Assembly: GCA_030390025.1 (NCBI GenBank)
Contig: CM059431.1
Location: forward strand, 121,522,001-121,586,000
Length of the DNA: 64,000 nt
From: Squalus acanthias
Taxonomy: Eukaryota
Direction: 5' to 3'
Shown: positions 37,923 to 62,750 of the stretch, piece by piece
Layout of the letters: each line of letters begins with the position of its first letter
How positions within the stretch are numbered: position 1 is the stretch's first letter
Made by a program: the position numbers and the translations under genes
Notes under the pieces: model-generated
What the model was told of the DNA's origin: nothing
The model's input: only the letters and a program-made list of their open reading frames with translations
Database searches by the model: none

Positions 37923-38398
37923 TATTACAAAGTATTTACAGAACAGAAACAGGCCATTCATCCAAACAGGTCCATGCCAATGTTTTTTCTCCACATGAGC
38001 CTCACTCACCCCTCATCTAACCCCATCAACATATCCTTCTATACCTTTCTACCTCAGGTGCTTATCTAGCTATGCCTTGAATGCATCTTTGCTATTCGCC
38101 TCAACTATTCCCTGTGGTACCGAGTTACACATTCTCACCACTCTGTTTCTCCTGAATTCCCTATTGGATTTATCTTATGACTAGTGGCCAGCTTATATTT
38201 ATGGCCCCTAGTTCTAGTCTCGCCCGTAGGTGGAAACATCTTCTCTACGTCTACCCTATCAAACCCTTTCATAATCTTGAAGACCTCTATCAGAGCACCC
38301 CTCAGTCTTCTCTTTTCTAGAGAAAAGAGCCCCAGCCTGTTCAGTCTTTCTTGATAGATATAACCTTTCAGTTTTGGTTTCAATCCAGTAAATCCATG
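37923..38398 (-). mobile_element. CR1 LINE 3' part, target of the provirus; continues at 51183-51819 and 52850-53066
   Basis: YQERLNRLGLFSLEKRRLRG; SKFADDTKL and GVPQGS on the far side of the provirus. Confidence 0.85.
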
Positions 38399-40065
38399 TG
38401 TAGAATTCGCAATATATCGCAATTTTATTAATAAGGAGAAAACACAGAGTTTCGTTCAAACAGCTTTTATTTCAGTAGAATGCTGGCAGGTTTAAAGTGG
38501 ACACAAGCAGCCTGTAAAATGGCCACCGCACCTCGTGACAGAACATTCTAGACTTTTCAACAGGCAGACAAGATGGCGTTCCAATAAACATTTGTGCAAG
38601 ATCGATTAAGATTCAGCACAGTGAAGATAATACACGAGACATTATGGGTTTGCAGTATACACATAGATACTGAAATCGGTCTCCCAGGTACAAAGGAAAG
38701 CCATTGTACCGAGTAATCAAACCCATCCAAAAGACATTAATATGTAAAATCCCAACGACTCTACGATGAGAGAGCCGTTAGCAGGTAGTTATACAGGACA
38801 CTTGGAAGCCCCAAACCCCTCCAGGGAGAACACCGACCGATTTAACAATGGGAGAAATATTAACAGGTACTCAGACATTTACGAGTAGCCCCGAAACCCA
38901 TTAAGAACGGAGATCACCCATACAAGACATTTGAGCGCCAAACCCTAAACAAAAGAATGGACATTATAGTTGGGCGGGAAACGGAAGATTTTGCACTATA
39001 ATTGCAGGCTCCAAACCGTCCATTTTTTCTCTTGCTGCTCTTATCATCGTGGCTGCTCCTGTGCTCTTATCCGGTCGCTTCGTAACCTCGTGGCTGCTCC
39101 TGTGTACTCGTAGTTGGGCTCGCTTCTGCTTGCCTGTTGCCTCTTCTGAAAAGACTGTTGAACTTTCTGATCCGTTCGGATCTACCTCGTGTCGCGTAAC
39201 GAAGACCTATATTGGTAACTGGTATCGGAACCAAAAGGCCCGAGAAGAGATGAGATGAGATGAGATGAGAAGAGAGGAAGACCATATCCATCGCCACAAT
39301 CAGTAAATCCCGACCGCGCCTGTAGGTCGATTATCCAAGTTTTTCCTTGCCAGGAAGACTTCTTCGAACTTATAACGAAACATATTGCATCGATGATAAC
39401 TGGACTGTGCCCAAAGTAACTGGAATGTGAAAGCCACCAATACAGATCTTCATCACAGCAGACGTTCCAGCCTGCTAGCCGGAGCAGCAGAAGCAAGTAA
39501 ACAAGTGGGACCAGGAGATCTCCTGACCGACACGTGGGTGCTGCGGTGAAAAACATCCGATCAGCTATTCGGAATTTCTCCGAGTTATCACGAGTGGTGA
39601 GCATGAGTCTCGAAATCCTACGAATCTAGTTTAGGATAGATATTGATAGGGGAGGGTTTAAGGATTAAGGATATTTGTAATGTGTGCCCCTATTTATTTT
39701 GTGCCGTTCGTTCCTCGTTTCCCTAAGATCGATTATATAACTGTTTGTAAGATTGTACTGTCATTAATCTGTGCTTATGACATGTATTTCATAATCTTAA
39801 GTATCATGCAATAAAGATTTTCCATTTCGTACCATTCAAACCGAGTCTACATGAGTTTCATCTCCATTACTGCTCTCGCATCTAAGTCCAGTGTCTAGAA
39901 CCGTAAGGGAGAGTGATTCGAACCACTCACAGGTGTGTCTAGTGTTCCCAGACTGGCTGGAGACCAGAACAGGCAACAAGGCCTAGACCCGCACTGACAT
40001 ATAGGCTGCACAGAGCCGCGTGAATCTCACAGGCTGCGAGACACGCAGGGTCAGAATCCCTTACA
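38399..40065 (+). repeat. 5' LTR (1667 bp)
   Basis: TGTAGAATTC...CCCTTACA; about a dozen differences from the 3' LTR; GC box ~38972, TATA-like ~38997, AATAAA 39810-39815. Confidence 0.97.
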
Positions 40066-40069
40066 GAAA

Positions 40070-41881
40070 ATGGCGACCGCGGCAGGACACTGGCAGCGAG
40101 AGGGTAGTGTGTTAGATTTTGGAATGACTGTACAAAATGTTATGCAGGAAAAGATAGCGGATTATGTGTTTGGAAAGGTTAATCTAACTAAGAAATGGAT
40201 AAGTGAATTGTTAGCGGATAAGAGCCCACTAGAGGCAGCTGAAAGGTGGACAGATAGTAAAGAACATAGAAAGACACTTGAGAAAGCAGTCTGGCTTATG
40301 TGTTACAAAAGGCAGGTTCAGATTTCAAACCAGACCATTACAGCGCTAGTAGCTCGAATCAGTCATTTAGAGGGAGAAATGGAGGAGAAGGTTTCTGGAG
40401 GGGAGGTGCTCATTAAGAATTTAAATGAGTTACACCAAGAAAGCCAGGAAGTCTCCAGTCACCTTAAAACAAGGATAGATTATCTCGAATGCCAGGTCAC
40501 TGAGGCAAAATTGAATGAGAGCAGGTTAAAGGAAAGATGTAACCGCCAAGCTGCCCAGATAAGAACTCAAGAAGAGAGCTTGACCGGGGTTAGGGCGGCA
40601 TATAAGTTGGCCCTTGAGGATAAGTTTCAGGGAGCCGATCATAGCGCCTGCCAAAGGGAGATAGAGCACCTCAAAAAGGCCGTGAACAATGCGAACGGCA
40701 TGGTGTGCCTTATCAATCCGTCGGCGCACCAGCCGCTAGTAAATGAGAGATTTAGAAAATCCCCACCAAGTAAAGCAGAAGAAGTAGTAGTCACTGCGCC
40801 CTCCGCGCCACCCAGCTATTCAGAAACCTGGGTTAGGGAGGAAGCAATGGAAGAAACAAAAGAGCCCATTGAAAAAGAAGTAGGAAAGGGATCGTTATAT
40901 CCAGTAACGGGTATTAAAAGGGGCCCAAGCAGAAACGGTGGGGAAGAACCGGGGGATCTCCTCGGACAGCTGGTGTTGCCTCACAGTTCACATCAGCTGA
41001 GAGCTATGATAAATCACGTACGGAAGCTGACCGAGACAGACGACCCTTCCGTACATTTCAGAGAAGTTGAGCAAGCCGCAGCCATTAACGGCTGCGATGA
41101 TGGGGAAACAGCAAAAATGCTGCTGTTCTCATTAGACAGCTCGGTCCTTCAGTGTCTCTCAGGCGAGAGCAAGAGGGGAACCAAGAGTTATGAGGAATTA
41201 AAGAATGAGGTCCTGGAAGTGTTGGGGGCGAACGACGAAGGTCCGTTTGCTAGAGTGGGACAGACAGTGCAGATGGAGGGAGAACCCCCGAAGGTTTTTG
41301 CCGACAGGCTGTGGCCAGTATATGAGCGCAGCTGTCTAGGTGCGCCCGAGCGCGAAGATGTGGAAGGTTTAGCTTTAACTCATTGGCTTAGGTGCATAAT
41401 AGCCAACAGTTTACCAGCCGTCAGAGAGCAGGCAAAAGCATGGTTTGATCCCAATGACCCCAACATTACGGAAGAGTCGGTCTTGAATCGACTCACGTTA
41501 GGTTATCGCAATATAAGGGGTATGGCAACACGTCCCCTTAAGGGAAGAGTACATGAGGTACGACCCGCAGCCCCGTATCAAAGAGAGTGGCATCAGGAGG
41601 GTAATCGCGCCCCACAGGCAGGTAATGCTTGTTACGGGTGTGGGAAGACAGGGCACTGGCGCAAGCATTGCAGGAACCCTTGGAAGGATTCCAAGGATAA
41701 AAATCCCGCGGTCCGAGCCCAGGCGCCTGTCCCGGCTAAGGAAGCCAAGGCACCCACCCCTCCTGACGACCTCGAAGCAGTGTTAGGAGCCATGCGCAAG
41801 CTGGTCTTGAATGCGCGTGGACAGGTGGCGGTCGCAACCGGCCCCGTAGGTGCCGCAGGACCGTCTAATAGTACCCCATGA
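40070..41881 (+). CDS. gag: Gag polyprotein (603 aa): N-terminal coiled coil, PSAPPSY late domain, capsid-like region, CCHC zinc knuckle
   Basis: Open ORF directly after the LTR; CYGCGKTGHWRKHC at 41630-41671; PSAPPSY at 40799-40819; start could alternatively be the ATG at 40124. Confidence 0.92.
   Translation: MATAAGHWQREGSVLDFGMTVQNVMQEKIADYVFGKVNLTKKWISELLADKSPLEAAERWTDSKEHRKTLEKAVWLMCYKRQVQISNQTITALVARISHLEGEMEEKVSGGEVLIKNLNELHQESQEVSSHLKTRIDYLECQVTEAKLNESRLKERCNRQAAQIRTQEESLTGVRAAYKLALEDKFQGADHSACQREIEHLKKAVNNANGMVCLINPSAHQPLVNERFRKSPPSKAEEVVVTAPSAPPSYSETWVREEAMEETKEPIEKEVGKGSLYPVTGIKRGPSRNGGEEPGDLLGQLVLPHSSHQLRAMINHVRKLTETDDPSVHFREVEQAAAINGCDDGETAKMLLFSLDSSVLQCLSGESKRGTKSYEELKNEVLEVLGANDEGPFARVGQTVQMEGEPPKVFADRLWPVYERSCLGAPEREDVEGLALTHWLRCIIANSLPAVREQAKAWFDPNDPNITEESVLNRLTLGYRNIRGMATRPLKGRVHEVRPAAPYQREWHQEGNRAPQAGNACYGCGKTGHWRKHCRNPWKDSKDKNPAVRAQAPVPAKEAKAPTPPDDLEAVLGAMRKLVLNARGQVAVATGPVGAAGPSNSTP
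40071..40088 (+). promoter_or_regulatory. Primer binding site, tRNA-Arg(TCG)
   Basis: TGGCGACCGCGGCAGGAC is the 18-nt complement of the vertebrate tRNA-Arg(TCG) 3' end ...GTCCTGCCGCGGTCGCCA (recalled sequence). Confidence 0.88.
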
Positions 41882-44800
41882 CTAGAACCGGCGCAGCCCG
41901 TCTACCTGTGTCCGCTTAGCTATGACGCGTGGAGGCGACCTGTGGTGGAGATGGAGGTAGAGAAACAGAAGGGTAGTTATTTGTTGGACACGGGAGCTTC
42001 TTGCACCATAATCCATACAGATAACCCTTTCGACTCGCCGCTATCTACCAAGGTCCCATTCACGTTAGCAGGGTTCACAGGAAAAGAACAGGCTGGCACG
42101 TTTTCCCTTCCGCTATCCATTCGTTTAGGAACACTTCGCCTTAAGTGGAAGTGTATACTGATGGCATGGCAAAAGGGGGGTGGAAGAGGTATCCTCGGGT
42201 CCGATCTCCTAGCGGGACACGGGATCCTCGTGGACCTCAGAAATCACTGTCTCTGGGGGGCTAAAGGTGAAGAAGGCGAGGTAATAGTGATTCCGGGGGA
42301 GGAAGAAACAGAGGTCCTGTGTACCGTACAGCCATCCGGAGGCTACGACCTCAGGCTTATGGTCGCAGATGTCCCAACGGACATGCAAACGTACGTGTCA
42401 GATAATATGCACGCGTTTGCAACCCACAAGCACGATTGTGGGAGAGTGGTCGGGTTTGAGGTCAGCGTAGATGGGGACCCCATGACCCGACCCCAAAAGC
42501 AGTATAACTTCCCCAAAGAAGCAGAACCCGATATGGAGACAGCAATGTCCTCCTTGGTGCAGCAGGGCGTGTTGAGGCCAATAGCCACACACGTAAACTC
42601 CCCATTATGGCCGGTTAGGAAGCCGGATAATTCGTGGAGGGCCACGGTGGACTACAGAGTCCTTAACAGTAACATTCCCGCCTGCGCGCCCACAGTAGCA
42701 GCAGTTGCTGACCTAATAGGGAGCATCCCAGCGTCCGCGACCACGTTCACGGTGCTGGATATCTCGAACGGTTTTTGGTCCATCCCGCTGCGGCGAGAGG
42801 ACCAGTACAAGTTTGCCTTTACTTTCAAAGGACAACAGTACACATGGAACTGTCTGCCACAGGGTTTCCACAATAGCCCCAGTATTTTTCATCAGTGTAT
42901 GGCAGGAAGTTTAAAGGAGTTTAGTCAGCCCAATCAGATAGTACAGTATGTGGATGATTTGCTCCTATTTACGGACTCAAGGGAGGAGCACGGACCACTA
43001 CTGGACGAGTTATTGGAGCTGTTAGCGAGAAAGGGTTTTAAAATAAACCCTAAGAAAGCACGTATCGGTCAGCGGGAAGTAAAGTTCCTGGGACTGACCA
43101 TACGCGCTGGGGAAAGAGCCATAGACAAAGCAAGGAGGGAGTCGGTGCAAGAATTACCGATTCCCAACAACGTAAGGGGTGTGAGGTCCTTCTTGGGACT
43201 GACCGGTTACTGCAGGGATTTTATCGAAGATTATGCGGCCACAGCGGCGCCGCTCCTCCGACTCCTCCATAAGGGGGTGGAGTGGCTTTGGGACGAGGGC
43301 TGCCAAGCAGCCTTCGAGAAGTTAAAAAGGGATCTGCAGACCGCGCCAGCCTTAGGGGCCATAGATGGGGGGAAGGAGTTTTTCCTGGAGGTAGCTGCCA
43401 GCGGAGACAGCTTAAGCGCCGTACTGCTCCAAGAGCGTCACGGCAAGCTGAGGCCGGTTGTCTATTCATCCAGGGTATTAACGGATGTGGAGAGAAGTTT
43501 CTCCAATTGCGAAAGGCACCTTTTAGCCACGCATTGGGCTGTGAAAAGATCAGCGATCTTCACAGGGCTCTCTCCCATCACTCTCCTCACACATCACACA
43601 CCAACTAAGATGCTTCTGGATGGGAGGATTAAAGACGGGACCGTAAGCAGCGCACGCATTGCGCGTTGGACCCTTCTTCTCTCCCAGTTGGATCTTAGAG
43701 TAAAAGGTCTTTGCGAGCCAAGGCTTGCGGCCAATCTGGTATACCCCGGTACAGCCCACCGGTGTTCGGTGGAAGGGGTGTGGGACGTCAACATAGGTTT
43801 ACGGGCCGGGATACATCCCACTGGGCGCGAGATTTATGTTGATGGGTCTAGCACAGTATCTGCTGGCGAGCGACTCACAGGGTGTGGAGTTTATGACCCT
43901 GCGGCAGACCTTGCCCTGGCGATCAAGCTCCCTAGCACCATGAGCGCGCAGCAGGCCGAGCTGTCTGCCGTGGTGTACGTTGTGACCCACCCAGACATTT
44001 TCCCAACCCCATACACGATTTGCTCGGACAGTATGTTCACCTGCAATTCGTGTACGGAATACCTGGCCATTTGGTCCCGCCGCGGATACACCTCCGCGGA
44101 CGGGCGACCTTTAACGGTGAAGCCCTTGCTGGAAAAGATCTTAGCAGCAGCAGTGGGGGAGGAAGGAGAGATTTTCATCCATAAGGTGAAAGCTCACTCC
44201 TCCACAGAGCCCCGTGGGGAGGGCAACCGGCAGGCGGATGCGCTAGCCAGGGAGGGTGCCCGCGACGGCACTTTCTGGAACCCCTATAGGACCGGACCCA
44301 TAGCAGCGGTCCGAGGCGGGGACGGGAATCCCGGGAACACCAGGGTAGCATTGCCCCTAGACCTCAAGACCGTCCAAACCCAGGATCCCGCCCTAAAAGC
44401 AGTCCTAAAAACGATTGCTGAAGGGAGGCAGGTAGAAGGTCCGTACAGTACGGCAACCCTCTCAGTTAAGGAAGGCATGCTGTTCCGCGAGGAGCAGTGG
44501 GTTGTGCCACAGCAGCACAGGAGGGAATTCCTCCAGTTGGCTCACGAGGGACCAGGGGCAGGGCACCCCGGGCCCGAGGTTACCTGGCAACGGGTAGAGC
44601 AAGCGGGATGGTGGCCAGGGCTCAGGGAACAAGTCCGCGAGTTCTGTGCAAACTGTCTTGTGTGCGCTGCAAACAACCCAGACCCCCAGAAAAGGAAGGT
44701 GCCCATGGGACACGTAAGAAGGGTAGAGGGACCATGGCAGTCGATACAGATCGACTATATAGGACCCCTGCCCACCACCCAGGGAGGTTATAAGTACTGC

Positions 44801-46378
44801 CTCGTCCTGGTGGATGTGTTTTCCAAGTGGGTGGAAGCCTTCCCTTGTCGAACAGCTACGGCACTGGGTACAGCAAAAATCTTGGTCCGGGAAGTGTTCT
44901 CGCGGTGGGGACTCCCCCGTTTTGTGGAGTCAGACCAAGGGAGTCATTTCACCGGCCAGGTGATGCAGAACACCCTCATGCTTTTGGGCATTGAAGGGAA
45001 GTGGCACGTAGCACACAATCCCCAGTCATCCGGGATTGTTGAACGTATGAACCGGACCCTGAAGGAGAAATTGAGGAAAGAGACTAGGAACTCGCCCCAA
45101 AAATGGGCGGAGGTTCTGCCTTTAGTCCTCATGGGGGTCCGGGCCAGTCAGTCGAAAAGTACGGGGTATTCCCCGCACGAGGTGATGACTGGGAGGCTCA
45201 TGCGAACCCCCACCCATGTGCTAGCGCCGGTGCTCACTGAGGGTCAGCTCCAAGAAATAAGCAGGGACAAGTTCGCCCAGACCCTCTTGGAGCGCCTAAA
45301 ACAGGTGTATGAGCAGGCGGCTGGGAACATGGGAAGGCAGCATCAGGGCAATCGCTTGTTGCTGGAACCCCGCAAAACGCGGGAGTGGGAAGTAGGAGAC
45401 CAGGTCATGGTCAGAAACTACGCCAGAGTAGGGAGTCTGGAACCACTGTATATGGGACCCTACAACATTGTAGACAAGGCGAGTCCCATGGTTTACGCCG
45501 TAAAAGTACCACGGCGCACTAAGTGGTTCCACATAAACCAATGCAAACTGTACCAGCCAGGTGCGCAGGGGAAAACTACAGGGGTAAATCCCGCCAATGG
45601 GAGAGCACAGCCCCAGGTAGGACCACAAGGCACACAGGCAGGCATAGCAGCTTGCATCAGGGGAAGGGACATCCCGGACGATCATGCAGCGTTTTTCTGG
45701 AATTGGGGGTTAGATGAGGAAGAATTCAGGGTACCCGGGTCAGATGAGGATAGTGCAGATGAGGATAGTGATGACGACGGGTGGTTTCGGAGGAACGGTC
45801 CCTTTTACGATATGGAGGGGACGGGGGCTGCAGGTAGAGATCCACACAGGGTGGACACACGAGCTGCAGGTCCCGAAGACAGGAGGGAGGAGCTAGAGGA
45901 GGCAGGGCCAGCCGCTATGGGAGCACAGAGAGTACCGGTGTGGCTCCCAGAGATGTGGCCGCCCGCTTTGAACGTCCAGTCCTCAGGGGAGGCAGAGATC
46001 ACGAGTGAAGGGCCGCCTGCTGGGCCGAGCAGGGCGGAGCCACGAACTGCCAGCCCCGAGGTTAGGGAGGCGGAGTCAGCGGAGGCGGAGCCAGCGACTG
46101 TGATGGAACCCCAGGTCATCCCGATGGAAGTCTCGGAACCCGGTCCGTCCGTCACGGAAACCCCGCCCATAGCAACTCCCCGTAGGTCAAGTAGAGAACC
46201 CCAGCCCAGGAGGATGTGGTCATGTCCCCAGACTGCCCCAAGGCGAAAATTTAAGGTTAAGATAACCCAGATACAGACCGGCCACATCGCAGCAGTAACA
46301 GGCTGCGGCAGATCAGAGGGAAGGGTCAGTGCCCTCCCACCGTCGGGAAGAGCTCGCAGCAGCCTTCTCAGAATTTAA
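41882..46378 (+). CDS. pol: Pol (protease, RT, degenerate RNase H tether, RNase H, integrase, C-terminal extension), probably made as Gag-Pol by UGA readthrough
   Basis: LLDTGAS; LPQGFHNSP, YVDD; FFLEVAAS..(tether); YVDGS/SAQQAEL/SDS/KAHS/GNRQAD; HHCC; IDYIGP, SDQG, SSGIVERMN; GPY. Frame is open from the codon after the gag stop. Confidence 0.95.
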   Translation, partial: LEPAQPVYLCPLSYDAWRRPVVEMEVEKQKGSYLLDTGASCTIIHTDNPFDSPLSTKVPFTLAGFTGKEQAGTFSLPLSIRLGTLRLKWKCILMAWQKGGGRGILGSDLLAGHGILVDLRNHCLWGAKGEEGEVIVIPGEEETEVLCTVQPSGGYDLRLMVADVPTDMQTYVSDNMHAFATHKHDCGRVVGFEVSVDGDPMTRPQKQYNFPKEAEPDMETAMSSLVQQGVLRPIATHVNSPLWPVRKPDNSWRATVDYRVLNSNIPACAPTVAAVADLIGSIPASATTFTVLDISNGFWSIPLRREDQYKFAFTFKGQQYTWNCLPQGFHNSPSIFHQCMAGSLKEFSQPNQIVQYVDDLLLFTDSREEHGPLLDELLELLARKGFKINPKKARIGQREVKFLGLTIRAGERAIDKARRESVQELPIPNNVRGVRSFLGLTGYCRDFIEDYAATAAPLLRLLHKGVEWLWDEGCQAAFEKLKRDLQTAPALGAIDGGKEFFLEVAASGDSLSAVLLQERHGKLRPVVYSSRVLTDVERSFSNCERHLLATHWAVKRSAIFTGLSPITLLTHHTPTKMLLDGRIKDGTVSSARIARWTLLLSQLDLRVKGLCEPRLAANLVYPGTAHRCSVEGVWDVNIGLRAGIHPTGREIYVDGSSTVSAGERLTGCGVYDPAADLALAIKLPSTMSAQQAELSAVVYVVTHPDIFPTPYTICSDSMFTCNSCTEYLAIWSRRGYTSADGRPLTVKPLLEKILAAAVGEEGEIFIHKVKAHSSTEPRGEGNRQADALAREGARDGTFWNPYRTGPIAAVRGGDGNPGNTRVALPLDLKTVQTQDPALKAVLKTIAEGRQVEGPYSTATLSVKEGMLFREEQWVVPQQHRREFLQLAHEGPGAGHPGPEVTWQRVEQAGWWPGLREQVREFCANCLVCAANNPDPQKRKVPMGHVRRVEGPWQSIQIDYIGPLPTTQGGYKYCLVLVDVFSKWVEAFPCRTATALGTAKILVREVFSRWGLPRFVESDQGSHFTGQVMQNTLMLLGIEGKWHVAHNPQSSGIVERMNRTLKEKLRKETRNSPQKWAEVLPLVLMGVRASQSKSTGYSPHEVMTGRLMRTPTHVLAPVLTEGQLQEISRDKFAQTLLERLKQVYEQAAGNMGRQHQGNRLLLEPRKTREWEVGDQVMVRNYARVGSLEPLYMGPYNIVDKASPMVYAVKVPRRTKWFHINQCKLYQPGAQGKTTGVNPANGRAQPQVGPQGTQAGIAACIRGRDIPDDHAAFFWNWGLDEEEFRVPGSDEDSADEDSDDDGWFRRNGPFYDMEGTGAAGRDPHRVDTRAAGPEDRREELEEAGPAAMGAQRVPVWLPEMWPPALNVQSSGEAEITSEGPPAGPSRAEPRTASPEVREAESAEAEPATVMEPQVIPMEVSEPGPSVTETPPIATPRRSSREPQPRRMWSCPQTAPRRKFKVKITQIQTGHIAAVTGCGRSEGRVSALPPSGRARSSLLRI

Positions 46379-46421
46379 AGGGGCCGCCCTGAGAACGGGC
46401 GGCACTGTAAAGTTATAGTTC

Positions 46422-46507
46422 TAAGTTTTAAGTTTATAGTTCAAGGCTAAGTTTTAAGTTTATAGTTCAAGGTTAAGTTTTAAGTTTATAGTTCAAGGTT
46501 AAGTTTT
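46422..46507 (+). repeat. Tandem repeat, 26-bp unit x3 plus partial, between pol and env
   Basis: TAAGTTTTAAGTTTATAGTTCAAGG(C/T) starting at 46422, 46448, 46474, 46500 (partial). Confidence 0.9.
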
Positions 46508-46715
46508 ATGTTTTATTAAGGTTAAGTTTGTAGTGTTTTTAACAGAAAACGATAAAATGATGGGAGCTTTAAAGATAGGTTTAGTTGAAGTTTATTCAGC
46601 GAACGTTGAAGTTTACGTGAGGCGAGGTCAGGGGACCCGCTCACCCTTCACAAAAGCCAGAGACTCTTGCGAGGCTGGCTACCTCATTCTATCTGATCAC
46701 AGGAACCAAGGAAGG

Positions 46716-49067
46716 ATGGAACGAATTCTAGTATTGCTCGTGGCAATCGGATGTGGATTGGCCTATCGAGGCCGCACCAAGGATGTCGTGGTGTTTGGAT
46801 GTTCCGGGGACACGGCCCCCATCGCGGTGGATGGGACCGGAAGACGGGAGGCAGAGGAGACCAGCACCTATTTCCACAAGGGAAGGTGGCCAGGATGGCT
46901 GGGAACGAACTCAACGGAGTATTCCAGCACATCGGGGTTTGCCTACAAAGAGACTTCTTTACTGTGCCCCAAAGTAAGGATCATCGCACCCAGGATCAGC
47001 GTCACCGTCGGCAAACGGATTTGTTTGACTTGTAGTGGGAAGGTCCCATTGAGCCGATGGTGGTGGCTGCGAAAGCTGAGCAAAACTATGAGGAACTCTT
47101 CGGTCGAGTGGGAACGACTGGGTAATAATACCCATCGGACAATTACGGGGACAGACGGACAAGTGAAAGTCTGTTGGGACAAATGGTGGGAACCGGATGA
47201 GGGAATTTATGTATGTATGTGGGGGTCAAAGTACGTTTGCCCCAAAGGCATCTCCATATTTTTTATTAATCAATGGCAGGATAACGGACAGGGGATGAGG
47301 TGGGATGCGAGCACCAGGGGGTGCGGAGCCCCATTCTCCCCGATCCCAGTAAATGCCACTGAGCTCATTACGCGCCCACGCAAAGCCCCGCCCACGATTC
47401 CGGTGGTTCTAGCTGAGGAAGAAGGGTGCCCTAAAACTAGTAAGGGACCCGGGAATGGTTTGGTACTGGTCCCCACAGACCAGATACTATTTCAGGGGGT
47501 ACATTACGCGGTGGCCTCGGTGATTTTAAATCTCACTGAGGTGCGGTTACCAGAGTGGTGCCCCAAAAAGACGGAACAGTTGTACCAGGTCCTGTTGACC
47601 AAGATGTTCAGACAATTTTACGAATTCGATTTCGCGGAAATTGATAAAACAAGTTTGTACACCGCACCACAGGAAGTTTTGGATCAAGTAGGGAGGCAAA
47701 GAAGGGGTTTGGTGAACGATGCGTTCACTGCTTTTAACACAGGTACATCTGTGGTCAACGCTCTAGACAGTGTGGAGCTGCAGACCCAGATTAATGGTTT
47801 AAAGACACAATTAAAGGACATTCTAACAGATGAGAATAAAGTGGTAGGGTCGGGTCTACACGAGGACCAAGCCATGACCCTCCATTTAAAGGAAATTATA
47901 GCAGAGTTGGAGAAACATGCAAAGACGGTAAATGCCCTGATTAGGGAAGATCGGAATGCATCCGATCAAGCTGCGCAGAACGAGGTGTGCGTGCTTTACG
48001 GGGCGTGGTTACTGGGCGAGGGCCGCAGTAATTTGGAGGATTTAAAACAAGGTTTGGTTCCGTCCTGGATAAGTAACAAACACCTGCGGGCGCTCCACCC
48101 TTTTCAGAACGCATTAAGTCCATGCCAGCTCAGGCTAGCTTCAGAAGCTTACCCAGTCCCCGTGGACTGCGGACGATCAAACCATACTATTATGGGAATA
48201 GTATTACGTATGCCGGTTTTGGGCGACACAGCAAAGCCCGCCCCGGTGTATCGGGTAGAGAACATTGGTGTCATTCAGGGGGGAGCCCACATTCGCTATG
48301 CAGCGGTTCCACCTTACGTCATCCGCTGGGAGCAAACGATGACAGGTACAGATCTCTCTGGTTGTCGTGGCAGGGGAGCACACATAATACTATGCCCCCA
48401 GCACTTGAATGCCTTTTTAACACCACAGTGCGGGTTCAGAACGACTGGCGCCAAGTCCATGAATTGCACCATGGAGGCAATGGCACAAGATCATGTGCCT
48501 CCGCAGGTAGCATACATCGGGGGTGGAACATATTGTGTTACCACTGCAGCGCAACACTACCAGCATGGAAACCGTAGCCGGTGTCCGGTGAGTGACAGCA
48601 GTTTCTGTTTTAAACCCAGGGCGGAAGTTCAAGTAGCACAACAGCGAATTATCCCAATCCCTGAACCATCCACTGTTCATCTCACAGTAAAAGAGAATTT
48701 CACCGACTTGCAGCGATTCGTCGCGCATTTTGGATACCTCATTCCCCCTCTCCCTGAACACCTCACCAAGCTTTTGAAAGCCGTCGCGGTGTCACAGAAA
48801 CATTTTTACACATTAGAGCAGAAAACTGTCGAAATAGGAACAGACATTCTGGATATAGTAGTTCCACCGTGGTGGAATCTGTTCACTAATATTGAAGTAC
48901 CTTCATGGATCAGAATAGCCTCCCACATTTTAGTCGTATGCCAAGTTTTCATTGTAGTGTACCTATTGGTTGTACATTGTAAAAGAGACAAACGCCTCAC
49001 CAAGCATGAAAACACGGGAGAGTGGCGAGAACGTTACGTGCGCGTGCACGATGAGAGCACCGTGTAA
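46716..49067 (+). CDS. env: Envelope glycoprotein (783 aa): signal peptide, Ig-like domain, class I F-like fusion protein, TM, short tail
   Basis: MERILVLLVAIGCGLA signal; furin site RQRR|GLVNDAF (47694-47705) then heptad repeat; Cys-rich region; TM IASHILVVCQVFIVVYLLVV; candidate acceptor cacAG|G at 46702. ORF track starts earlier at non-ATG 46533. Confidence 0.9.
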   Translation: MERILVLLVAIGCGLAYRGRTKDVVVFGCSGDTAPIAVDGTGRREAEETSTYFHKGRWPGWLGTNSTEYSSTSGFAYKETSLLCPKVRIIAPRISVTVGKRICLTCSGKVPLSRWWWLRKLSKTMRNSSVEWERLGNNTHRTITGTDGQVKVCWDKWWEPDEGIYVCMWGSKYVCPKGISIFFINQWQDNGQGMRWDASTRGCGAPFSPIPVNATELITRPRKAPPTIPVVLAEEEGCPKTSKGPGNGLVLVPTDQILFQGVHYAVASVILNLTEVRLPEWCPKKTEQLYQVLLTKMFRQFYEFDFAEIDKTSLYTAPQEVLDQVGRQRRGLVNDAFTAFNTGTSVVNALDSVELQTQINGLKTQLKDILTDENKVVGSGLHEDQAMTLHLKEIIAELEKHAKTVNALIREDRNASDQAAQNEVCVLYGAWLLGEGRSNLEDLKQGLVPSWISNKHLRALHPFQNALSPCQLRLASEAYPVPVDCGRSNHTIMGIVLRMPVLGDTAKPAPVYRVENIGVIQGGAHIRYAAVPPYVIRWEQTMTGTDLSGCRGRGAHIILCPQHLNAFLTPQCGFRTTGAKSMNCTMEAMAQDHVPPQVAYIGGGTYCVTTAAQHYQHGNRSRCPVSDSSFCFKPRAEVQVAQQRIIPIPEPSTVHLTVKENFTDLQRFVAHFGYLIPPLPEHLTKLLKAVAVSQKHFYTLEQKTVEIGTDILDIVVPPWWNLFTNIEVPSWIRIASHILVVCQVFIVVYLLVVHCKRDKRLTKHENTGEWRERYVRVHDESTV

Positions 49068-49505
49068 TCGGAAAATGGCGTCACTCCCGCTCGCCACGTG
49101 CGCCGCGGAAGCCTGTACTCATATAAGATTTTCAGAGATTGTAAATACGTTGGGAACTCGACATGTTTTAAGAGTTGGTGTTGATTATTTTGGTGATGGT
49201 GTTACAGTTAAAATTGATTGTTTGGTTTTGGGTTCTGTTTCTCCTTTCCCTGAATAAAAGATGAATATACAGGTGATACGAGAGGCATCGGCCTGGTTAC
49301 GCCGGGAAGGAAAACAAGTGGTGTAAGTTTAAGGGCAAATAATGCCTACGGTGATATAAAATGTAATTTTCTTGGGAAATGAGGACGACACAGAGACCCT
49401 AGCTAGGTTAAAGTTATGGGATTAATTTGCTGGATTCGGAGAGAAATCGAGATAATATTGCTCACCACTATGATTTTTGATACGATAAGCGGAGTTATTC
49501 GCATC

Positions 49506-49517
49506 AACAGGAGGGAC
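49506..49517 (+). promoter_or_regulatory. Polypurine tract
   Basis: AACAGGAGGGAC abutting the 3' LTR; identical in the sister provirus (54842-54853, minus). Confidence 0.8.
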
Positions 49518-51182
49518 TGTAGAATTCGCAATATATCGCGATTTTATTAATAAGGAGAAAACACAGAGTTTCGTTCAAACAGCTTTTATTTCAGTAGAAT
49601 GCTGGCAGGTTTAAAGTGGACACAAGCAGCCTGTAAAATGGCCGCCGCACCTCGTGACAGAACATTCTAGACTTTTCAACAGGCAGACAAGATGGCGTTC
49701 CAATAAACATTTGTGCAAGATCGATTAAGATTCAGCACAGTGAAGATAATACACGAGACATTATGGGTTTGCAGTATACACATAGATACTGAAATCGGTC
49801 TCCCAGGTACAAAGGAAAGCCATTGTACCGAGTAATCAAACCCATCCAAAAGACATTAATATGTAAAATCCCAACGACTCTACGATGAGAGAGCCGTTAG
49901 CAGGTAGTTATACAGGACACTTGGAAGCCCCAAACCCCTCCAGGGAGAACACCGACCGATTTAACAATGGGAGAAATATTAACAGGTACTCAGACATTTA
50001 CGAGTAGCCCCGAAACCCATTAAGAACGGAGATCACCCATACAAGACATTTGAGCGCCAAACCCTAAACAAAAGAATGGACATTATAGTTGGGCGGGAAA
50101 CGGAAGATTTTGCACTATAATTGCAGGCTCCAAACCGTCCATTCTTCTCTTGCTGCTCTTATCATCGTGGCTGCTCCTGTGCTCTTATCCGGTCGATTCG
50201 TAACCTCGTGGCTGCTCCTGTGTACTCGTAGTTGGGCTCGCTCCTGCTTGCCTGTTGCCTCTTCTGAAAAGACTGTTGAACTTTCTGATCCGTTCGGATC
50301 TACCTCGTGTCGCGTAACGAAGACCTATATTGGTAACCGGTATCGGAACCAAAAGGCCCGAGAAGAGATGAGATGAGATGAGATGAGAAGAGAGGAAGAC
50401 CATATCCATCGCCACGGTCAGTAAATCCCGACCGCGCCTGTAGGTCGATTATCCAAGTTTTTCCTTGCCAGGAAGACTTCTTCGAACTTATAACGAAACA
50501 TATTGCATCGATGATAACTGGACTGTGCCCAAAGTAACTGGAATGTGAAAGCCACCAATACAGATCTTCATCACAGCAGACGTTCCAGCCTGCTAGCCGG
50601 AGCAGCAGAAGCAAGTAAACAAGTGGGACCAGGAGATCTCCTGACCGACACGTGGGTGCTGCGGTGAAAAACATCCGATCAGCTTTCGGAATTTCTCCGA
50701 GTTATCACGAGTGGTGAGCATGAGTCTCGAAATCCTACGAATCTAGTTTAGGATAGATATTGATAGGGGAGGGTTTAAGGATTAAGGATATTTGTAATGT
50801 GTGCCCCTATTTACTTTGTGCCGTTCGTTCCTCGTTTCCCTAAGATCGACTATATAACTGTTTGTAAGATTGTACTGTCATTAATCTGTGCTTATGACAT
50901 GTATTTCATAATCTTAAGTATCATGCAATAAAGATTTTCCATTTCGTACCATTCAAACCGAGTCTACATGAGTTTCATCTCCATTACTGCTCTCGCATCT
51001 AAGTCCAGTGTCTAGAACCGTAAGGGAGAGTGATTCGAACCACTCACAGGTGTGTCTAGTGTTCCCAGACTGGCTGGAGACCAGAACAGGCAACAAGGCC
51101 TAGACCCGCACTGACATATAGGCTGCACAGAGCCGCGTGAATCTCACAGGCTGCGAGACACGCAGGGTCAGAATCCCTTACA
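49518..51182 (+). repeat. 3' LTR (1665 bp)
   Basis: Direct repeat of 38399-40065 with two 1-nt deletions and ~10 substitutions. Confidence 0.97.
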
Positions 51183-51819
51183 CATGTTGCACTTTCTCCA
51201 ATGCCTCTATATCCTTTTTATAATATGGAGACCAGAACTGTTCACAATACTCCAAGTGTGGTCTAACCAAGGTTCTATACAAATTTAACATAACTTCAAT
51301 GCTTTTCAATTCTATCCCATTAGAAATGAACCCGTGCTTTGTTTGCTTTTTAAGTGGCCTTCTTAACCTGCATCACTACTTTTAGTGATTGGTGTATCTG
51401 TCCCCCAGATCCCTCTGTTCCTCTACCCCATTTATACACTTATTTTTCGAGGAGTACGTGGCCTTCTTATTCTTCCTACTAAAATGTATTGCCTTACACT
51501 TACCTATATTGAAGTCCTTTTGCCAATTACACACCCATTCTGCAAGTTTATTAATGTCTTCCTGTATTTTGTCTCAGTCCTCCTCTGTATTAACTGTACC
51601 ACTCAATTTGGTGTCATCGGCAAATTTTGAAATTGTACTTCTGATTCCCGAGTGCAAATCGTTTATGTAAATAGTGAGAAGTGGTCCCAGCAGCGATCCT
51701 TGTGGAACACCATTTACCACCATTTGCCAATCCGAGTAACTATCTTTAAATCCGACTCTCTGTTTTCTGTTTCGTAGCCAGTTTGCTATCCATTCTACTA
51801 CTTGTCCCCTGACTTCACA

Positions 51820-53230: not shown

Positions 53231-56200
53231 TGTAAGGGGTTTCGGTTCAGGGTGCTTGTGCGCGGTTAGGCCTTCGTTGCCTAATACTATTGCTTGCTCT
53301 GGTCTCCGGCCAGCCTTATTGCAATAAGCACCTGTGAGTGGTTCGACCCACTCGCCCTTACGGTTCTAACACTGGACTTAGGTGCGAGAGCAGTAATGCA
53401 GAGAAAAACTCAAATAGACCCGGTGAATAGTACGAAATGGAAATCTTTATTGCATAACGTCCAAAATCATGAAGTACATGTCATAGGCACAAATTAATGA
53501 CAGTACAAGTATACTTACATTCATAAAACTTGGTCCAGGGTAATGAGGAACGCACGGCACATCGTAAAAAGGGGAACACATTATATTTATCCTTAATAAA
53601 ACCACCCTCCCCTATCAATACCTACACTAATCTAGATTTGTAGGATCGGGAAACATGCTCACCACTCGTGATACTTCGGAGAATTTTAAAGTAAGGCACT
53701 CGGCTTGTTTCGCTGCAACACCTGACTGTCACGTGTTGGAAGGCGTCTCTGTACCCCACTTGTTTATCTTCTCTGCTCCAGCTAGCAGGCTGGGCTCCCC
53801 GTTGTCATGAAGAACTCGACAGTGCTCGGGCCCGGCTGTACAACTCAAAGAAAAGTCTTTCTGGACCGACACCAGTTAACCGGTAAAATTCAAAGAAGAG
53901 TCTTTGACCAGTTCATGCAGTAACCTGTAGAGTTCAAAATGGTCTATATATTTTCGGGCGCGGTCGGGGTTTACTGACCGCGGCGGCACGTGGATTCTTC
54001 TTCTTCTCTTCTCATCTCGTCTCTTCGGGCCTTCGGGTCCAGAACACCGTTTACCGACCCTTGGGATGGTGCACCCGGTCACTGGCCTTCGTCGAGGTGG
54101 CTCGTTCCAAATTGAGCTCCACCCAACATAGGAGAATAAAAGTTCAGCCCGCGTCTAGAGTCAGTTCAAACAAATCAGCCTCGGGAGGATCAGAGGAATA
54201 AGAGAGAGATGGACGTTTGTTCACTATAGTTATAATGCTGTGTTCCCTTATCTCCCGCCCAAATCTTAATGTTCATCCTTTGTAAAATCTTGGCGCTCAA
54301 AAATTCCCAGTATGGGGTGATTCTTTCCTTTAATGGGTTTCGGTAGCACCTTAAACTGGCCAACTACCCGTTAATGTTTTCCCCATTGTCGAACCGGCTA
54401 GGAGTCTCCGTGACTGGTTTTGGGGCCTCCTCGAATACTGACTTAATCACCCGAGAATGGCTCTCTCATTGTAGAGCCGTGGGGAATTTGCGTATTGATG
54501 TATCTGGATGGGCCTTCGATTGCCCAGTACAATGGTCCTTACTTGCGCATGGAAAATGATTCCAGCACTTATATCTCTTGCTATTGTGTCGAATGCAGAC
54601 AGGTTGCATCCTGTCTTTATCAGTGTTTGCTGCGTATTAACCAATCTTAGGCTGAAATGGTTATTCGAACGCCATTTGTCTGCCCACTGAAAATTCTGGA
54701 AGCTTCTGCCACGAGGCGCGGTGGCCATTTTACAGGCTTCTGTGTCCTGTTTAATCATGACAGCATTTCGTTGAAATAAAACTAATGAAACGAATCTGCT
54801 TTATCTCGTTATTTCGAATCGCAATAATTGCGAATTTTACAGTCCCTCCTGTTGATGCGAATAACTCCGCTTATCGTATCAATCAAAAGTGGTGGTGAGC
54901 AAAATTATCCCGATTCTCCACATCCAAACACTCCCTTAACTTAAACTATCTAGGGTCTCCATGCCGTCCTCATTTCCCAGGGAAAATTACATTATCTAAC
55001 TTGGACAAAACCGTAGGCAGTATTGCCTTTCAAACTTACATCATGTATACGTCTTCCAGGTGCAACAGGCTGATGCCTCTCGTACCACCTGTATATGTTT
55101 TTTATTATACGAGGAAAAAAACTAATCAAACAACCCATTTAACAAATACAAAAATTAAAAATAATCAAACAACTCTTTTAAAATACAAAGTTCCAAACTT
55201 GGTTACATATCTTCATAACTAACAATCAATTACAAGAACACACATGGTAAAATGGAGTGGCATCATCCTGGCCGTTTACACGGCGCTTTCCTCGTGCACA
55301 CGCACGTAACGTTCTCTCCACTCGCCTGTGTTCTCCTGCTTTGTGAGGCGCTTGCCTCTCTTGCAGTGCACGACCAATAGGTACACTACAATTATTACTT
55401 GGCACACTACTAAAATGTGGGAGGCTATTCTGATCCATGAAGGCACTTCAATATTGGTGAACAGGTCCCACCACGGTGGGATGACTATGTCTAGAATTTC
55501 TGTCCCTATCTCGACTGTCTTTTGTTCTAGGGTGTAAAAATGTTTTTGCGATACCGCGACGGCTTTCAAAAGCTTGGTGAGGTGTTCAGGGAGAGGGGGA
55601 ATGATGTATCCGAAATGCGCGACGAATCGCTGCAAGTCGGTGAAATTCTCTTTTACTGTTAGATGAACAGTGGATGGTTCAGGGATCGGGAAATTCGCTG
55701 CTGTGCCACTTGAACTTCAGCCCTGGATTTAAAACAGAAACTGCTGTCACTCACCAGACACCAGCTGCGGTTTCCATGCTGGTAGTGTTGCGCTGCAGTG
55801 GTAACGCAATATGTTCCACCCCCTATGTATGCCACCTGCGGAGGCACATGATCTTGTGTCATTGCTTCCATGCTGCAATTCATGGGCTTCGCGCCAGCCA
55901 TTCTGAACCCGCATTGTGGTGTTAAAAAGGCATTCAAGTGCTGGGGACACAGGATTATGTGTGCTCCCCGGCCACGACAACCCGAGAGATCGGTACCTGT
56001 CATCGTTTGCTCCCAGCGGATGATGTAAGGTGGGACCGCTGCGTAGCGAATGTGGGCTCCCCCCTGAATGACACCAATGTTCTCTACCCGATACACCGGG
56101 GCGGGCTTTGCTGTGTCACCCAAAACCGGCATACGTAATACTATACCCATGATGGTATGGTTTGATCGTCCGCAGTCCACGGGGACTGGGTATGCCTCTG

Positions 56201-57747
56201 AGGCTAGCCTGAGCTGGCACGGGCTTAATGCGTTCTGAAAAGGTTGGAGCGCCTGCAGGTGTTTGTTACTTATCCAGGACGGGACCAAACCTTGTTTTAA
56301 ATCCTCCAAATTACTGCGGCCCTCGCCCAGTAACCACGCCCCGTATAGTACGCACACCTCGTTCTGCGCAGCTTGATCGGATGCATTCCGATCTTCCCTA
56401 ATCAGGGCATTTACCGTTCTCGCATGCTTCTCCAGCTCTGTTATAATTTCCTTTAAGTGTAGCATCATGGCCTGGTCCTCATGTAACTCAGACCCTACTA
56501 CCTTGTTTTCGCTTGTGAGGATGCTTTTTAATTGTGTTTTTAAACCATTGATCTGGGTCTGCAGCTCCACGTTGTCTAGAGCGTTGACCACAGATGTTCC
56601 TGTATTAAAGGCGGTGAACATATCGTTCACAATACCCCTTCTTTGTACCCCACCTGACCGAAAACTTCGTGTGGTGTGGTGTACAAGCTTGTCTTGTTAA
56701 TCTCTGCAAAATCAAACTCGTAGAATTGTCTAAACATGTTTGTCAACAGGACCTGGTACAATTGTTCCGTCTCTTTGGGGCACCACTCTGGCAACCGCAC
56801 CTCGGTGAGATTTAAAATCACCGAGGCCACCGCGTAATGTATCCCCTGAAATAGTATCTGGTCTGTTGGGACCAGTACCAAACCATTCCCGGGCCCCTTA
56901 GTGGTTTTAGGGCACCCTTCCTCCTGAGCCAAAACCACCGGAATCGTGGGCGGGGCCTTGCGTGGGCACGTGATGAGTTCAGTGGCATTTACCGGGATCG
57001 GGGAGTATGGAGCTCCGCAACCCCTTGTGCTGACATCCCACCTCATCCCTTTCCCGTTATCCTGCCACTGGTGCACGAAAAATATGGATATACCCTTGGG
57101 GCAAACGTACTTCGATCCCCACATACAAACATAAATTCCCTCATCCGGTTCCCACCATTTGTCCCAACAGACTTTCAATTGTCCGTTAGTCCCCGTAATT
57201 GTCCTATGGGTATTGTTACCCAATCGCTCCCACTGGACCGAGGAATTTCTCATATTTTTGCTCAATTTCCGTAACCACCACCATCGGCTCAATGGGACCT
57301 TCCCATTGCATGTCAAACAAATCCTTTTGCCGACTGTGACGCTGATTCTGGTCACCCGAGAATGGCTCTCTCATTGTAGAGCCATGGGGAATTTGCGTAT
57401 TGATGTATCTGGATGGGCCTTCGATTGCCCAGTACAATGGTCCTTACTTGCGCATGGAAAATGATTCCAGCACTTATATCTCTTGCTATTGTGTCGAATG
57501 CAGACAGGTTGCATCCTGTCTTTATCAGTGTTTGCTGCGTATTAACCAATCTTATGCTGAAATGTTTATTCGAACGCCATCTTGTCTGCCCACTGAAAAT
57601 TCTGGAAGCTTCTGCCACGAGGCGCGGCGGCCATTTTACAGGCTTCTGTGTCCTATTTAATCATGACATAATTTTGTTGAAATAAAACTGATGAAACGAA
57701 TCTGCTTTATCTCGTTATTTCGAATCGCGATAATTGCGAATTTTACA
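53231..57747 (-). mobile_element. Internally deleted sister provirus (subfamily B): partial 5' LTR 57352-57747, env remnant, complete 3' LTR 53231-54841
   Basis: TG/CA termini, TSD CAGG (53227-53230 / 57748-57751), PPT, env highly similar to provirus A; gag, pol and PBS absent. Confidence 0.93.
55276..57350 (-). pseudogene. env: env pseudogene: lacks signal peptide, two 1-nt frameshifts (~56647, ~55691)
   Basis: ORFs 56627-57355, 55659-56630 and 55276-55635 tile the env of provirus A; ~21 differences in the first ~234 aa. Confidence 0.93.
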
Positions 57748-59574: not shown

Positions 59575-59612
59575 TCACAAGCTTTCGGAGCTATCACTCC
59601 TTCCTCAGGTGA
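59575..59612 (-). ncRNA. Minimal type I hammerhead ribozyme motif (copy 1)
   Basis: Minus strand TCAC CTGAGGA A GGAG tgatag CTCC GAAA GCTT GTGA: CUGANGA and GAAA cores, helix I TCAC/GTGA, helix II GGAG/CTCC, palindromic AAGCTT. Confidence 0.8.
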
Positions 59613-59946
59613 AGTAAATTGGATACAGAATCGCCAGAGCATATATAGATGGAAAAAAAAAGCATGTGTACTTTACAATTGCAGACCAATAAATTAAATC
59701 ATCCTGACTATCTGCCGAGGTGTGATAAAGTTAATTAAGTCAGCCAGGAAGGTACCACATCAAAAGACATAGCAAGATACAACTGAGACAATGAGGTGTA
59801 GTCGCAGGGGTTCCAACGTGTCAAAAGCTGCCGTCTGTATGTAAAACGAAAAGCTTTAAAAAAAAATTACTTTTTTACTGGGAAAATGTTTACTTTTTTA
59901 CTGGGAATCACATCTGTGAACAAGCTAACGACGACTCGAGTCCGGA

Positions 59947-62625: not shown

Positions 62626-62712
62626 GATGCGGAGATGCCGGTGTTGGACTGGGGTGGACAAAATTGAGAGGTCGCACAACACCAGGTTATAGTCCAACAG
62701 TTTTATTTGAAA

Positions 62713-62750
62713 TCACAAGCTTTCGGAGCTATCACTCCTTCCTCAGGTGA
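62713..62750 (-). ncRNA. Minimal type I hammerhead ribozyme motif (copy 2, in the pseudo-LTR upstream of the ORF)
   Basis: Identical to 59575-59612. Confidence 0.8.

What the first reader, a model, noticed from the sequence alone, without database searches (positions are those of the whole stretch)
41876..41965. Gag-Pol junction is a single in-frame UGA in the canonical leaky UGA-CUAG context
Seen: CCA TGA CTA GAA CCG..., with pol in the same frame as gag (41942-40070 = 1872 nt, divisible by 3) and open from the codon after the stop (LEPAQPVYLCPLSYDAWRRPVVEM...LLDTG). No frameshift is needed. Known: UGA-CUAG drives readthrough in alphaviruses and several vertebrate mRNAs, whereas gammaretroviruses use UAG plus a pseudoknot. 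Inference: programmed UGA readthrough sets the Gag:Gag-Pol ratio; CCGUCUACC may pair with GGUGGAGAUGG downstream as a stimulator.
Basis: partly seen in the sequence, partly recalled or inferred. Interest (0 to 1): 0.8.

Follow-up and report, generated by a model that had tools for sequence, protein, structure and literature searches.

The report
Alphavirus-style leaky stop in shark retrovirus
A young, intact endogenous retrovirus in a shark-type genome separates its coat and enzyme genes by one in-frame UGA stop in the leaky context known from alphaviruses and some human genes, so its enzymes are likely made by ribosomes reading through that stop, and published fish lokiretroviruses show the same unremarked signal.

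Summary
Observation confirmed. A young provirus (LTRs 0.6% apart, 4-bp target duplication, all ORFs otherwise open) has gag (603 aa) and pol (1498 aa) in one frame, split by one TGA followed by CTAG. The stop is the true Gag end: 4 of 4 full-length Gag relatives (45-52% identical) end within one aligned residue, and a related elephant-shark provirus has an in-frame TGA-C there. The protease domain starts upstream of the first pol Met, so readthrough is the likely route (about 0.85). Instead a local hairpin or a 210-nt rod (z -5.7) starts 6-7 nt after the stop, as in alphaviruses, but the whole coding region folds well. The element is a basal, snakehead-retrovirus-grade retrovirus with a probable F-type Env, not a lokiretrovirus by RT tree. 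Yet 7 of 24 published lokiretrovirus entries end Gag at TGA-CTA(G/A), which that paper does not discuss. A 2026 review lists no retrovirus with UGA-CUA. Readthrough is untested, and CUAG conservation inside this element's own clade was not shown at DNA level. New variant of a known kind.

The parts
38399..40065 (+). 5' LTR (1667 nt), TG...CA, preceded by the 4-bp target-site duplication
   Evidence: 10 mismatches and 2 gap columns against the 3' LTR over 1667 columns
40071..40088 (+). Primer-binding site, overlapping the gag AUG; likely tRNA-Arg (tRNA identity recalled, also noted in earlier finding e1-7806816)
   Evidence: sequence after the LTR; tRNA match not tested with a tool
40070..41881 (+). 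gag, 603 aa: N-terminal coiled-coil-like region, capsid-like region, one CCHC zinc knuckle, ends at the UGA
41879..41885 (+). In-frame UGA stop with CUAG context (type II readthrough motif)
   Evidence: motif function from PMC4132726 and PMC13517186
41888..41948 (+). Predicted local hairpin, 6-nt spacer after the stop
   Evidence: -28.7 kcal/mol; dinucleotide z -1.2 to -1.3; synonymous z -3.2; rank 5 of 172 windows
41889..42100 (+). Predicted unbranched extended stem-loop (79 pairs), 7-nt spacer; alternative to the local hairpin
   Evidence: -92 kcal/mol; z -5.7 (0 of 200 shuffles); synonymous z -5.25 (0 of 200); rank 1 of 54 windows but four others within 0.7 z
41882..46378 (+). pol, 1498 open codons: protease, RT, tether, RNase H, integrase, long C-terminal tail; first Met at 41951, 12 residues before the catalytic Asp (41987)
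46716..49067 (+). env, 783 aa from the Met after a predicted splice acceptor near 46702; signal peptide, RQRR cleavage site, probable F-type fusion subunit, transmembrane helix
   Evidence: folds failed
49518..51182 (+). 3' LTR (1665 nt), preceded by a short purine tract and followed by the target-site duplication

Best explanation
The UGA at 41879 is the natural end of Gag in an intact endogenous retrovirus, and a minority of ribosomes likely read through it to make Gag-Pol, the likely only source of the viral enzymes. Shown: one in-frame stop at the Gag/protease boundary, CUAG after it, open frames on both sides, and relatives whose Gag ends at the same place. Inferred from established work on UGA-CUAG genes and alphaviruses: UGA plus CUAG weakens release-factor recognition, so a near-cognate tRNA (Trp, Arg or Cys; recalled) decodes the stop at a basal rate of 1-2% or more. 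Predicted and less certain (about 0.45): an RNA stem starting 6-7 nt downstream, at the ribosome's mRNA entry channel, raises this to the few percent that sets the Gag:Gag-Pol ratio. The protease would then cut itself out of the fusion. That the CUAG letters are themselves under selection in this lineage is likely (about 0.7) but rests on a sister lineage, not on this clade's DNA.
For: (1) Young intact provirus: LTRs differ at 10 of 1667 columns, and gag, pol and env are otherwise open. (2) All 4 full-length Gag relatives aligned (three skate RefSeq proteins, one unnamed; 45-52% identity) end within one column of the window's Gag. (3) Elephant-shark CmiERV scaffold 2, the published SnRV-related lineage I, has an in-frame TGA followed by C between a similar Gag end and the protease (read by eye). 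(4) The Pfam retroviral protease match starts at pol residue 17, before the first Met at 24. In relatives the first Met lies 13, 3 and 3 residues before the catalytic Asp, so there is no conserved usable pol start. (5) No slippery heptamer of the pattern tested in 41600-41990. (6) In the lokiretrovirus supplement (PMC7947760), 7 of 24 entries end Gag at TGA-CTA with the protease reading on in frame (Ofa, Cne, Pyo, Sau then G; Dcl, Lro, Bsp then A; Bsp's frame breaks further on). An eighth (Tfu) has TGN-CTA. Flanking codons differ while CTA stays. (7) The 222 nt after the stop fold far better than shuffles, and the stem starts at the spacer distance reported for alphaviruses. (8) Three common substitutions seen in other copies inside the stem region are synonymous and compatible with the rod: two unpaired, one G-C to G-U. 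(9) UGA-CUA alone supports about 1.5% readthrough (abstract of PMC4132726).
Against: No experiment or ribosome data. CUAG was not seen in DNA of a distant member of this element's own clade: the elephant-shark copy has UGA-CAUG (an old, decayed copy), and 0 of 13 interpretable retroviral junctions fetched have UGA-CUA. The read table showed only 40 of 431 differences, so invariance of the heptamer is not established. The rod is only marginally the best of 54 windows (next z -5.1, -4.8, -4.7, -4.5; median -1.9), and no two-sided covariation was found. The fold switches between hairpin and rod with window length. A plausible splice acceptor lies at 41918-41919. In Tca2, in-frame UGA flanks were not enough for readthrough in a yeast reporter (abstract). 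Ten lokiretrovirus entries are annotated as one open gag-pol frame, so a stop is not universal there.
Confidence: 0.85

Rival explanations
1. Readthrough happens but the context is incidental: UGA-C plus some downstream structure does the work, and CUAG (Leu-Glu) is fixed only by protein needs or by chance.
For: Related elephant-shark element has UGA-CAUG. The SnRV-like locus L032 has UAG-GGC and no strong fold (z -0.7). No DNA of distant clade members was obtained.
Against: CTA is 11% of Leu codons and CTA+G 0.4% of positions in this pol. CTA is kept in 9 of 9 lokiretrovirus junctions where this site could be read (7 TGA, 1 TGN, 1 sense codon).
Confidence: 0.2
2. Pol is made separately, as in foamy viruses, from a spliced or internally started mRNA, and the shared frame is a relic.
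For: Acceptor-like AG at 41918-41919 with 11 of 15 pyrimidines. Donor-like sites at 39596 and 39903 upstream of the PBS. RT-RNase H is about as close to foamy as to MLV enzymes (E 6e-64 against 2e-70). Tca2 has a minor junction promoter.
Against: That acceptor is followed first by an out-of-frame AUG. The first in-frame Met would cut off the start of the protease domain and is not at a conserved place.
Confidence: 0.08
3. The TGA is a nonsense mutation of this copy in an ancestrally fused gag-pol frame.
For: Ten of 24 lokiretrovirus entries are single frames, and one (Pfl) has a sense codon at the equivalent site.
Against: 4 of 4 full-length Gag relatives end here. The provirus is very young and has no other lesion. 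No substitution at 41879-41885 is among the 40 best-supported differences in four runs, although two near-fixed ones 35-45 nt downstream are.
Confidence: 0.03
4. The UGA is decoded as selenocysteine or bypassed by another recoding route such as a double frameshift or reinitiation.
For: UGA followed by a stem resembles stop-redefinition elements of some selenoprotein mRNAs (passage of PMC3159437).
Against: No Rfam match, SECIS included, at gathering score in 38300-51300. No slippery site. gag and pol share a frame.
Confidence: 0.04

Closest known systems
Alphavirus nsP3/nsP4 opal readthrough (SINV, VEEV, CHIKV; Firth et al. 2011, PMC3159437, passages; review PMC13517186, sections 2, 4.1.2, 4.2.4, Table 2)
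   Same: UGA-CUA(G) ahead of the polymerase; predicted extended stem-loop starting 7-9 nt after the stop; a relative with a sense codon at the site.
   Different: Here it is a retroviral Gag-Pol switch. The predicted stem is a nearly fully paired 210-nt rod or a 60-nt hairpin, not two short arms around a large loop. Untested.
Gag-Pol readthrough of gamma- and epsilonretroviruses (MoMLV UAG-G plus pseudoknot)
   Same: Same logic: one in-frame stop between Gag and protease sets the enzyme share.
   Different: UGA-C instead of UAG-G; no pseudoknot predicted (not testable with the folding tool); window lies outside the class I clade.
Snakehead retrovirus and clade Huo / class III ERVs (CmiERV lineage I, XtERV-S)
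   Same: In-frame Gag stop; basal RT position; closest Pols are frog and coelacanth ERVs (41-43% over PR-RT-RH); coiled-coil-rich Gag; collinear but non-significant Env similarity to L032.
   Different: SnRV uses UAG-GGC. A clade of SnRV with the window's group is weakly rejected (p-AU 0.034). CmiERV lineage I has UGA-CAUG and a gamma-type Env.
Lokiretroviruses (Wang and Han 2020, PMC7947760; parts 1-3 of 4 of the main text and supplement searches read)
   Same: Tether plus RNase H; probable F-type Env; same UGA-CUA junction in 7 of 24 entries.
   Different: RT-tether tree rejects one clade with the window (p-AU 0.008). Short PR-RT linker here against a long one in lokiretroviruses. That paper found none in 3 chondrichthyan genomes (one table row) and does not mention readthrough.
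Vertebrate UGA-CUAG genes AQP4, MAPK10, OPRK1, OPRL1, MDH1 (Loughran et al. 2014, PMC4132726, abstract and discussion)
   Same: Identical heptamer.
   Different: They add short C-terminal tails and lack conserved RNA structure; here the extension is a 1498-aa enzyme polyprotein.

Membership tests
Type II (UGA-CUA/CGG) readthrough sites | UGA followed by CUA or CGG | tested here: met
   class defined
Type II (UGA-CUA/CGG) readthrough sites | Long functional ORF in frame behind the stop with no usable start of its own | tested here: met
Type II (UGA-CUA/CGG) readthrough sites | Context conserved at nucleotide level in relatives | tested here: inconclusive
   stop position kept; CUA kept in lokiretroviruses; CAUG in CmiERV; read table cut to 40 of 431 rows
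Type II (UGA-CUA/CGG) readthrough sites | 3' extended stem-loop after a 7-9 nt spacer, with covariation | tested here: inconclusive
   strong predicted rod, but genome-wide folding bias and only one-sided compatible changes
Type II (UGA-CUA/CGG) readthrough sites | Measured readthrough product | not testable with these tools
   needs reporter, proteomics or ribosome profiling
Gammaretroviral type III readthrough | UAG-G(G) followed by an H-type pseudoknot | tested here: not met
   stop is UGA-C; 11 fetched loci show UAG-G; pseudoknot not modelled
Retroviridae (ERV) | [quoted passage not shown] | tested here: met
   (50-row clade, support 99/97)
Lokiretroviruses | RT within the lokiretrovirus clade | tested here: not met
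   (p-AU 0.008; LG+G4; group picked after seeing the tree); clade anchored by P0186, whose N-terminal Pol part matches the Loki-Lro Pol text
Lokiretroviruses | Env similar to paramyxo/pneumovirus F (PF00523) | tested here: inconclusive
   no Pfam or PDB sequence hit; Atlas features 0.91-0.92 to Baculo_F and Fusion_gly clusters; two folds failed
Snakehead-retrovirus-like clade (Huo / class III) | RT groups with SnRV, outside class I, foamy and class II | tested here: inconclusive
   outside class I; basal polytomy with SnRV; joint clade p-AU 0.034; no foamy, ERV-L or class II rows were in the trees

The most novel reading that the evidence does not exclude
Alphavirus-type UGA-CUA readthrough, with an extended 3' stem and opal/sense switching, is a third, overlooked Gag-Pol mechanism used by both the lokiretrovirus sister lineage and basal shark retroviruses, and it is the ancestral Gag-Pol switch from which the UAG-pseudoknot of gammaretroviruses and the frameshifts of other genera derived.
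Probability: 0.2. Interest if true: 0.8.

Novelty: new variant of a known kind. Interest (0 to 1): 0.55.

Why it matters
Experimentally verified retroviral readthrough is confined to gammaretroviral UAG plus pseudoknot, and a 2026 review lists no retrovirus with UGA-CUA. A young intact shark provirus with that context, and the same signal in 7 of 24 published lokiretrovirus entries, would add a type II signal to Retroviridae. It would link retroviral recoding to that of alphaviruses and vertebrate genes, and make the origin of the Gag-Pol switch testable by reading junctions across basal ERVs. It also means these Pols are mis-annotated as starting at internal Met, TTG or CTG codons. Not found in print within the library searched. 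Repbase entries and subscription papers (for example Gao et al. 2003 on retrotransposon recoding, recalled) were not seen.

Tried and rejected
No whole genome is held, so copies could not be counted. Scans for junction DNA of close relatives gave nothing usable: viral contigs with the single Pol, 0 of 8; genome contigs with the Gag alignment, 0 of 79. The metagenome (31 loci) and viral (13 loci) scans gave only distant elements. Of these 44 loci I examined 19 junctions; 13 were interpretable and 6 were not. No RNA holder was listed among the runs. In the four runs laid, none of the 12 listed joints has GT..AG ends, but RNA status is a guess and contigs show presence, not absence. Single-sequence folds of Env failed (pLDDT 33). 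The Odin paper's 10 supplementary text files hold none of three junction motifs, which says nothing as they may lack DNA. Rfam and tRNA scans were empty. Lokiretrovirus membership was my first guess and was dropped after the trees. Trees used rows I picked: 74 of 139 RT segments and 42 rows. Searches of earlier scan notes found none on this junction.
Full report
Observation. The TGA at 41879-41881 is in frame with the gag ATG at 40070 and is followed by CTAG. gag reads 603 aa to it. pol is open for 1498 codons behind it and carries protease, RT, tether, RNase H and integrase. The 7-mer alone is common (4 seen, 7.1 expected). Its position is what counts: it is the only stop in about 2100 codons, it falls at the Gag/protease boundary, and CTA+G is 0.4% of codon positions in this pol.

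The element. It is a complete provirus: LTRs at 38399-40065 and 49518-51182 with 10 mismatches and 2 gap columns in 1667, a 4-bp target duplication, a PBS overlapping the gag AUG, and an open env. Named Gag and Env homologues are from a skate and a sawshark, so the host is a cartilaginous fish (inference). RT-RNase H matches MLV (E 2e-70) and foamy (6e-64) enzymes better than Ty3 (1e-41). The nearest named Pols are frog and coelacanth ERVs. In an RT tree of 74 picked rows the window falls in a 50-row retrovirus clade (99/97), in an open fork with the SnRV-like Pol, outside class I and outside the lokiretrovirus clade. A 42-row RT-tether tree agrees. One clade with lokiretroviruses is rejected (p-AU 0.008), and one with SnRV weakly so (0.034). 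Both tests used LG+G4 with groups chosen after the trees, and no foamy or class II rows were included. Env looks F-type by language-model features (0.91-0.92), but sequence searches and two folds gave nothing. I file it as a basal, SnRV-grade retrovirus (clade Huo of PMC6001957, passages), membership unresolved.

Is the stop the real Gag end? All 4 full-length Gag relatives aligned, 45-52% identical, end within one column of it; a fifth cluster member (334 aa) was not aligned. The elephant-shark CmiERV on scaffold 2 (PMC4422223, first part of text and of supplement 1) has an in-frame TGA, then CATG, between a similar Gag end and its protease (by eye). Contigs of four runs from three organisms gave 431 differences, 40 shown. 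None shown is at 41879-41885, while near-fixed changes at 41917 and 41926 are. This argues against a lesion private to this copy but does not prove that the heptamer is invariant.

How is Pol made? gag and pol share a frame and no slippery heptamer of the tested pattern lies nearby. The protease profile match begins at pol residue 17, before the first Met at 24. In relatives the first Met sits 13, 3 and 3 residues before the catalytic Asp. A separate pol start would therefore truncate the protease. An acceptor-like AG at 41918-41919 keeps spliced pol alive as a minor rival. Readthrough is the best reading (0.85). UGA-CUA alone gives about 1.5% in human cells (PMC4132726 abstract and discussion), and alphavirus stems starting 8-9 nt after the stop raise readthrough 3- to 14-fold (PMC3159437 passages; PMC13517186 section 4.2.4).

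The structure. With pairing span up to about 80 nt, a hairpin at 41888-41948 dominates (dinucleotide z -1.3, synonymous z -3.2, rank 5 of 172). With longer span, an unbranched rod at 41889-42100 replaces it (-92 kcal/mol; z -5.7, 0 of 200 shuffles; synonymous z -5.25, 0 of 200). It ranks 1 of 54 windows, but four others are within 0.7 z and the median is -1.9, so the coding region is folded throughout. The three listed substitutions in the region are synonymous and fit the rod; there is no two-sided covariation. A stimulator is plausible (about 0.45), not shown.

The wider pattern. The lokiretrovirus paper (PMC7947760; main text parts 1-3 of 4 read, whole text searched) never mentions readthrough, stop codons or frameshifts. 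Its supplement (flagged as cut when stored) has 24 entries. Seven end Gag at TGA-CTA with the protease reading on in frame: Ofa, Cne, Pyo, Sau (then G) and Dcl, Lro, Bsp (then A) (frames read by eye; Bsp breaks further on). Tfu has TGN-CTA. Ten are annotated as a single frame; among them Pfl has an arginine codon then CTA at the equivalent site and Npa has an unresolved residue there. Four show no gag ahead of pol, and two (Bpe, Lca) I did not resolve. These are consensus entries of related viruses, not independent events, but the codons around the stop differ while CTA stays. By contrast 0 of 13 interpretable junctions among the fetched retroviral loci have UGA-CUA: 11 have UAG-G, one UGA-AGA and one decayed gamma-like locus UGA-CGG.

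Comparison with print. The 2026 review (PMC13517186; sections 2 part 1, 4.1.2, 4.2.4, tables, term searches) lists retroviral contexts UAG-G, UGAAGA, UGACGA and UGAAGU and does not name lokiretroviruses. XtERV-S has an in-frame TGA with presumed suppression (PMC8278194 passages; its downstream context was not seen). Tca2 warns that an in-frame UGA need not be read through by its flanks alone (abstract). Searches found no paper on UGA-CUA at a retroviral Gag-Pol junction; Repbase and subscription papers were not searched. PMC9040795, PMC12440569, PMC11089739 and PMC10435555 were seen as term searches only.

Verdict. The feature is real. It works like alphavirus type II readthrough placed at a retroviral Gag-Pol junction. 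UGA Gag stops and retroviral readthrough are known, so this is a new variant of a known kind. Its interest comes from the CUA(G) context and its unremarked recurrence in the sister lineage. Whether that is shared ancestry or convergence is open. Interest 0.55.

Noticed in passing
PMC7947760 supplement, Data set S1: Seven lokiretrovirus entries end Gag at TGA-CTA(G/A), one at TGN-CTA and one has a sense codon plus CTA; the authors start Pol at downstream TTG/CTG/ATG codons. Several seem by eye to have complementary arms after the stop (not folded).
   Followed up: partly
window 40070-46375: The whole gag-pol coding region folds better than synonymous shuffles (median z -1.9 over 54 windows, five below -4.5), suggesting genome-scale RNA structure.
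   Followed up: partly
window 38997-40072: TATA-like box at 38997 and AATAAA at 39810 imply an R region of about 800 nt and a leader of about 1 kb with 12 upstream AUGs before gag; donor-like sites at 39596 and 39903 lie upstream of the PBS. How gag initiates is unexplained.
   Followed up: no
window 40066-40088: The gag AUG overlaps the primer-binding site, leaving no leader between PBS and gag.
   Followed up: no
window 46716-49067: Env has a probable F-type fusion subunit and an N-terminal segment with an Ig-like DxGxYxC motif; a skate homologue is 76% identical, higher than the Gag homologues (52%).
   Followed up: partly
L002:2378-2386: A decayed gamma-like ERV has an in-frame UGA-CGG Gag stop, the other type II context.
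   Followed up: no
window 45560-46378: Pol carries a long acidic, Pro/Glu-rich tail of about 270 aa after the integrase; an antisense ORF of 189 aa overlaps it (45805-46374).
   Followed up: no
window 59520-63745 (- strand): Penelope-like element: 921-aa ORF with weak RT hit and a neighbouring GIY-YIG fragment, with identical direct repeats 3138 nt apart.
   Followed up: partly
window 54447-57747: Pair of about 400-nt direct repeats (96-99% alike) 2905 nt apart enclosing two minus-strand ORFs (345 and 247 aa) without Pfam match.
   Followed up: no
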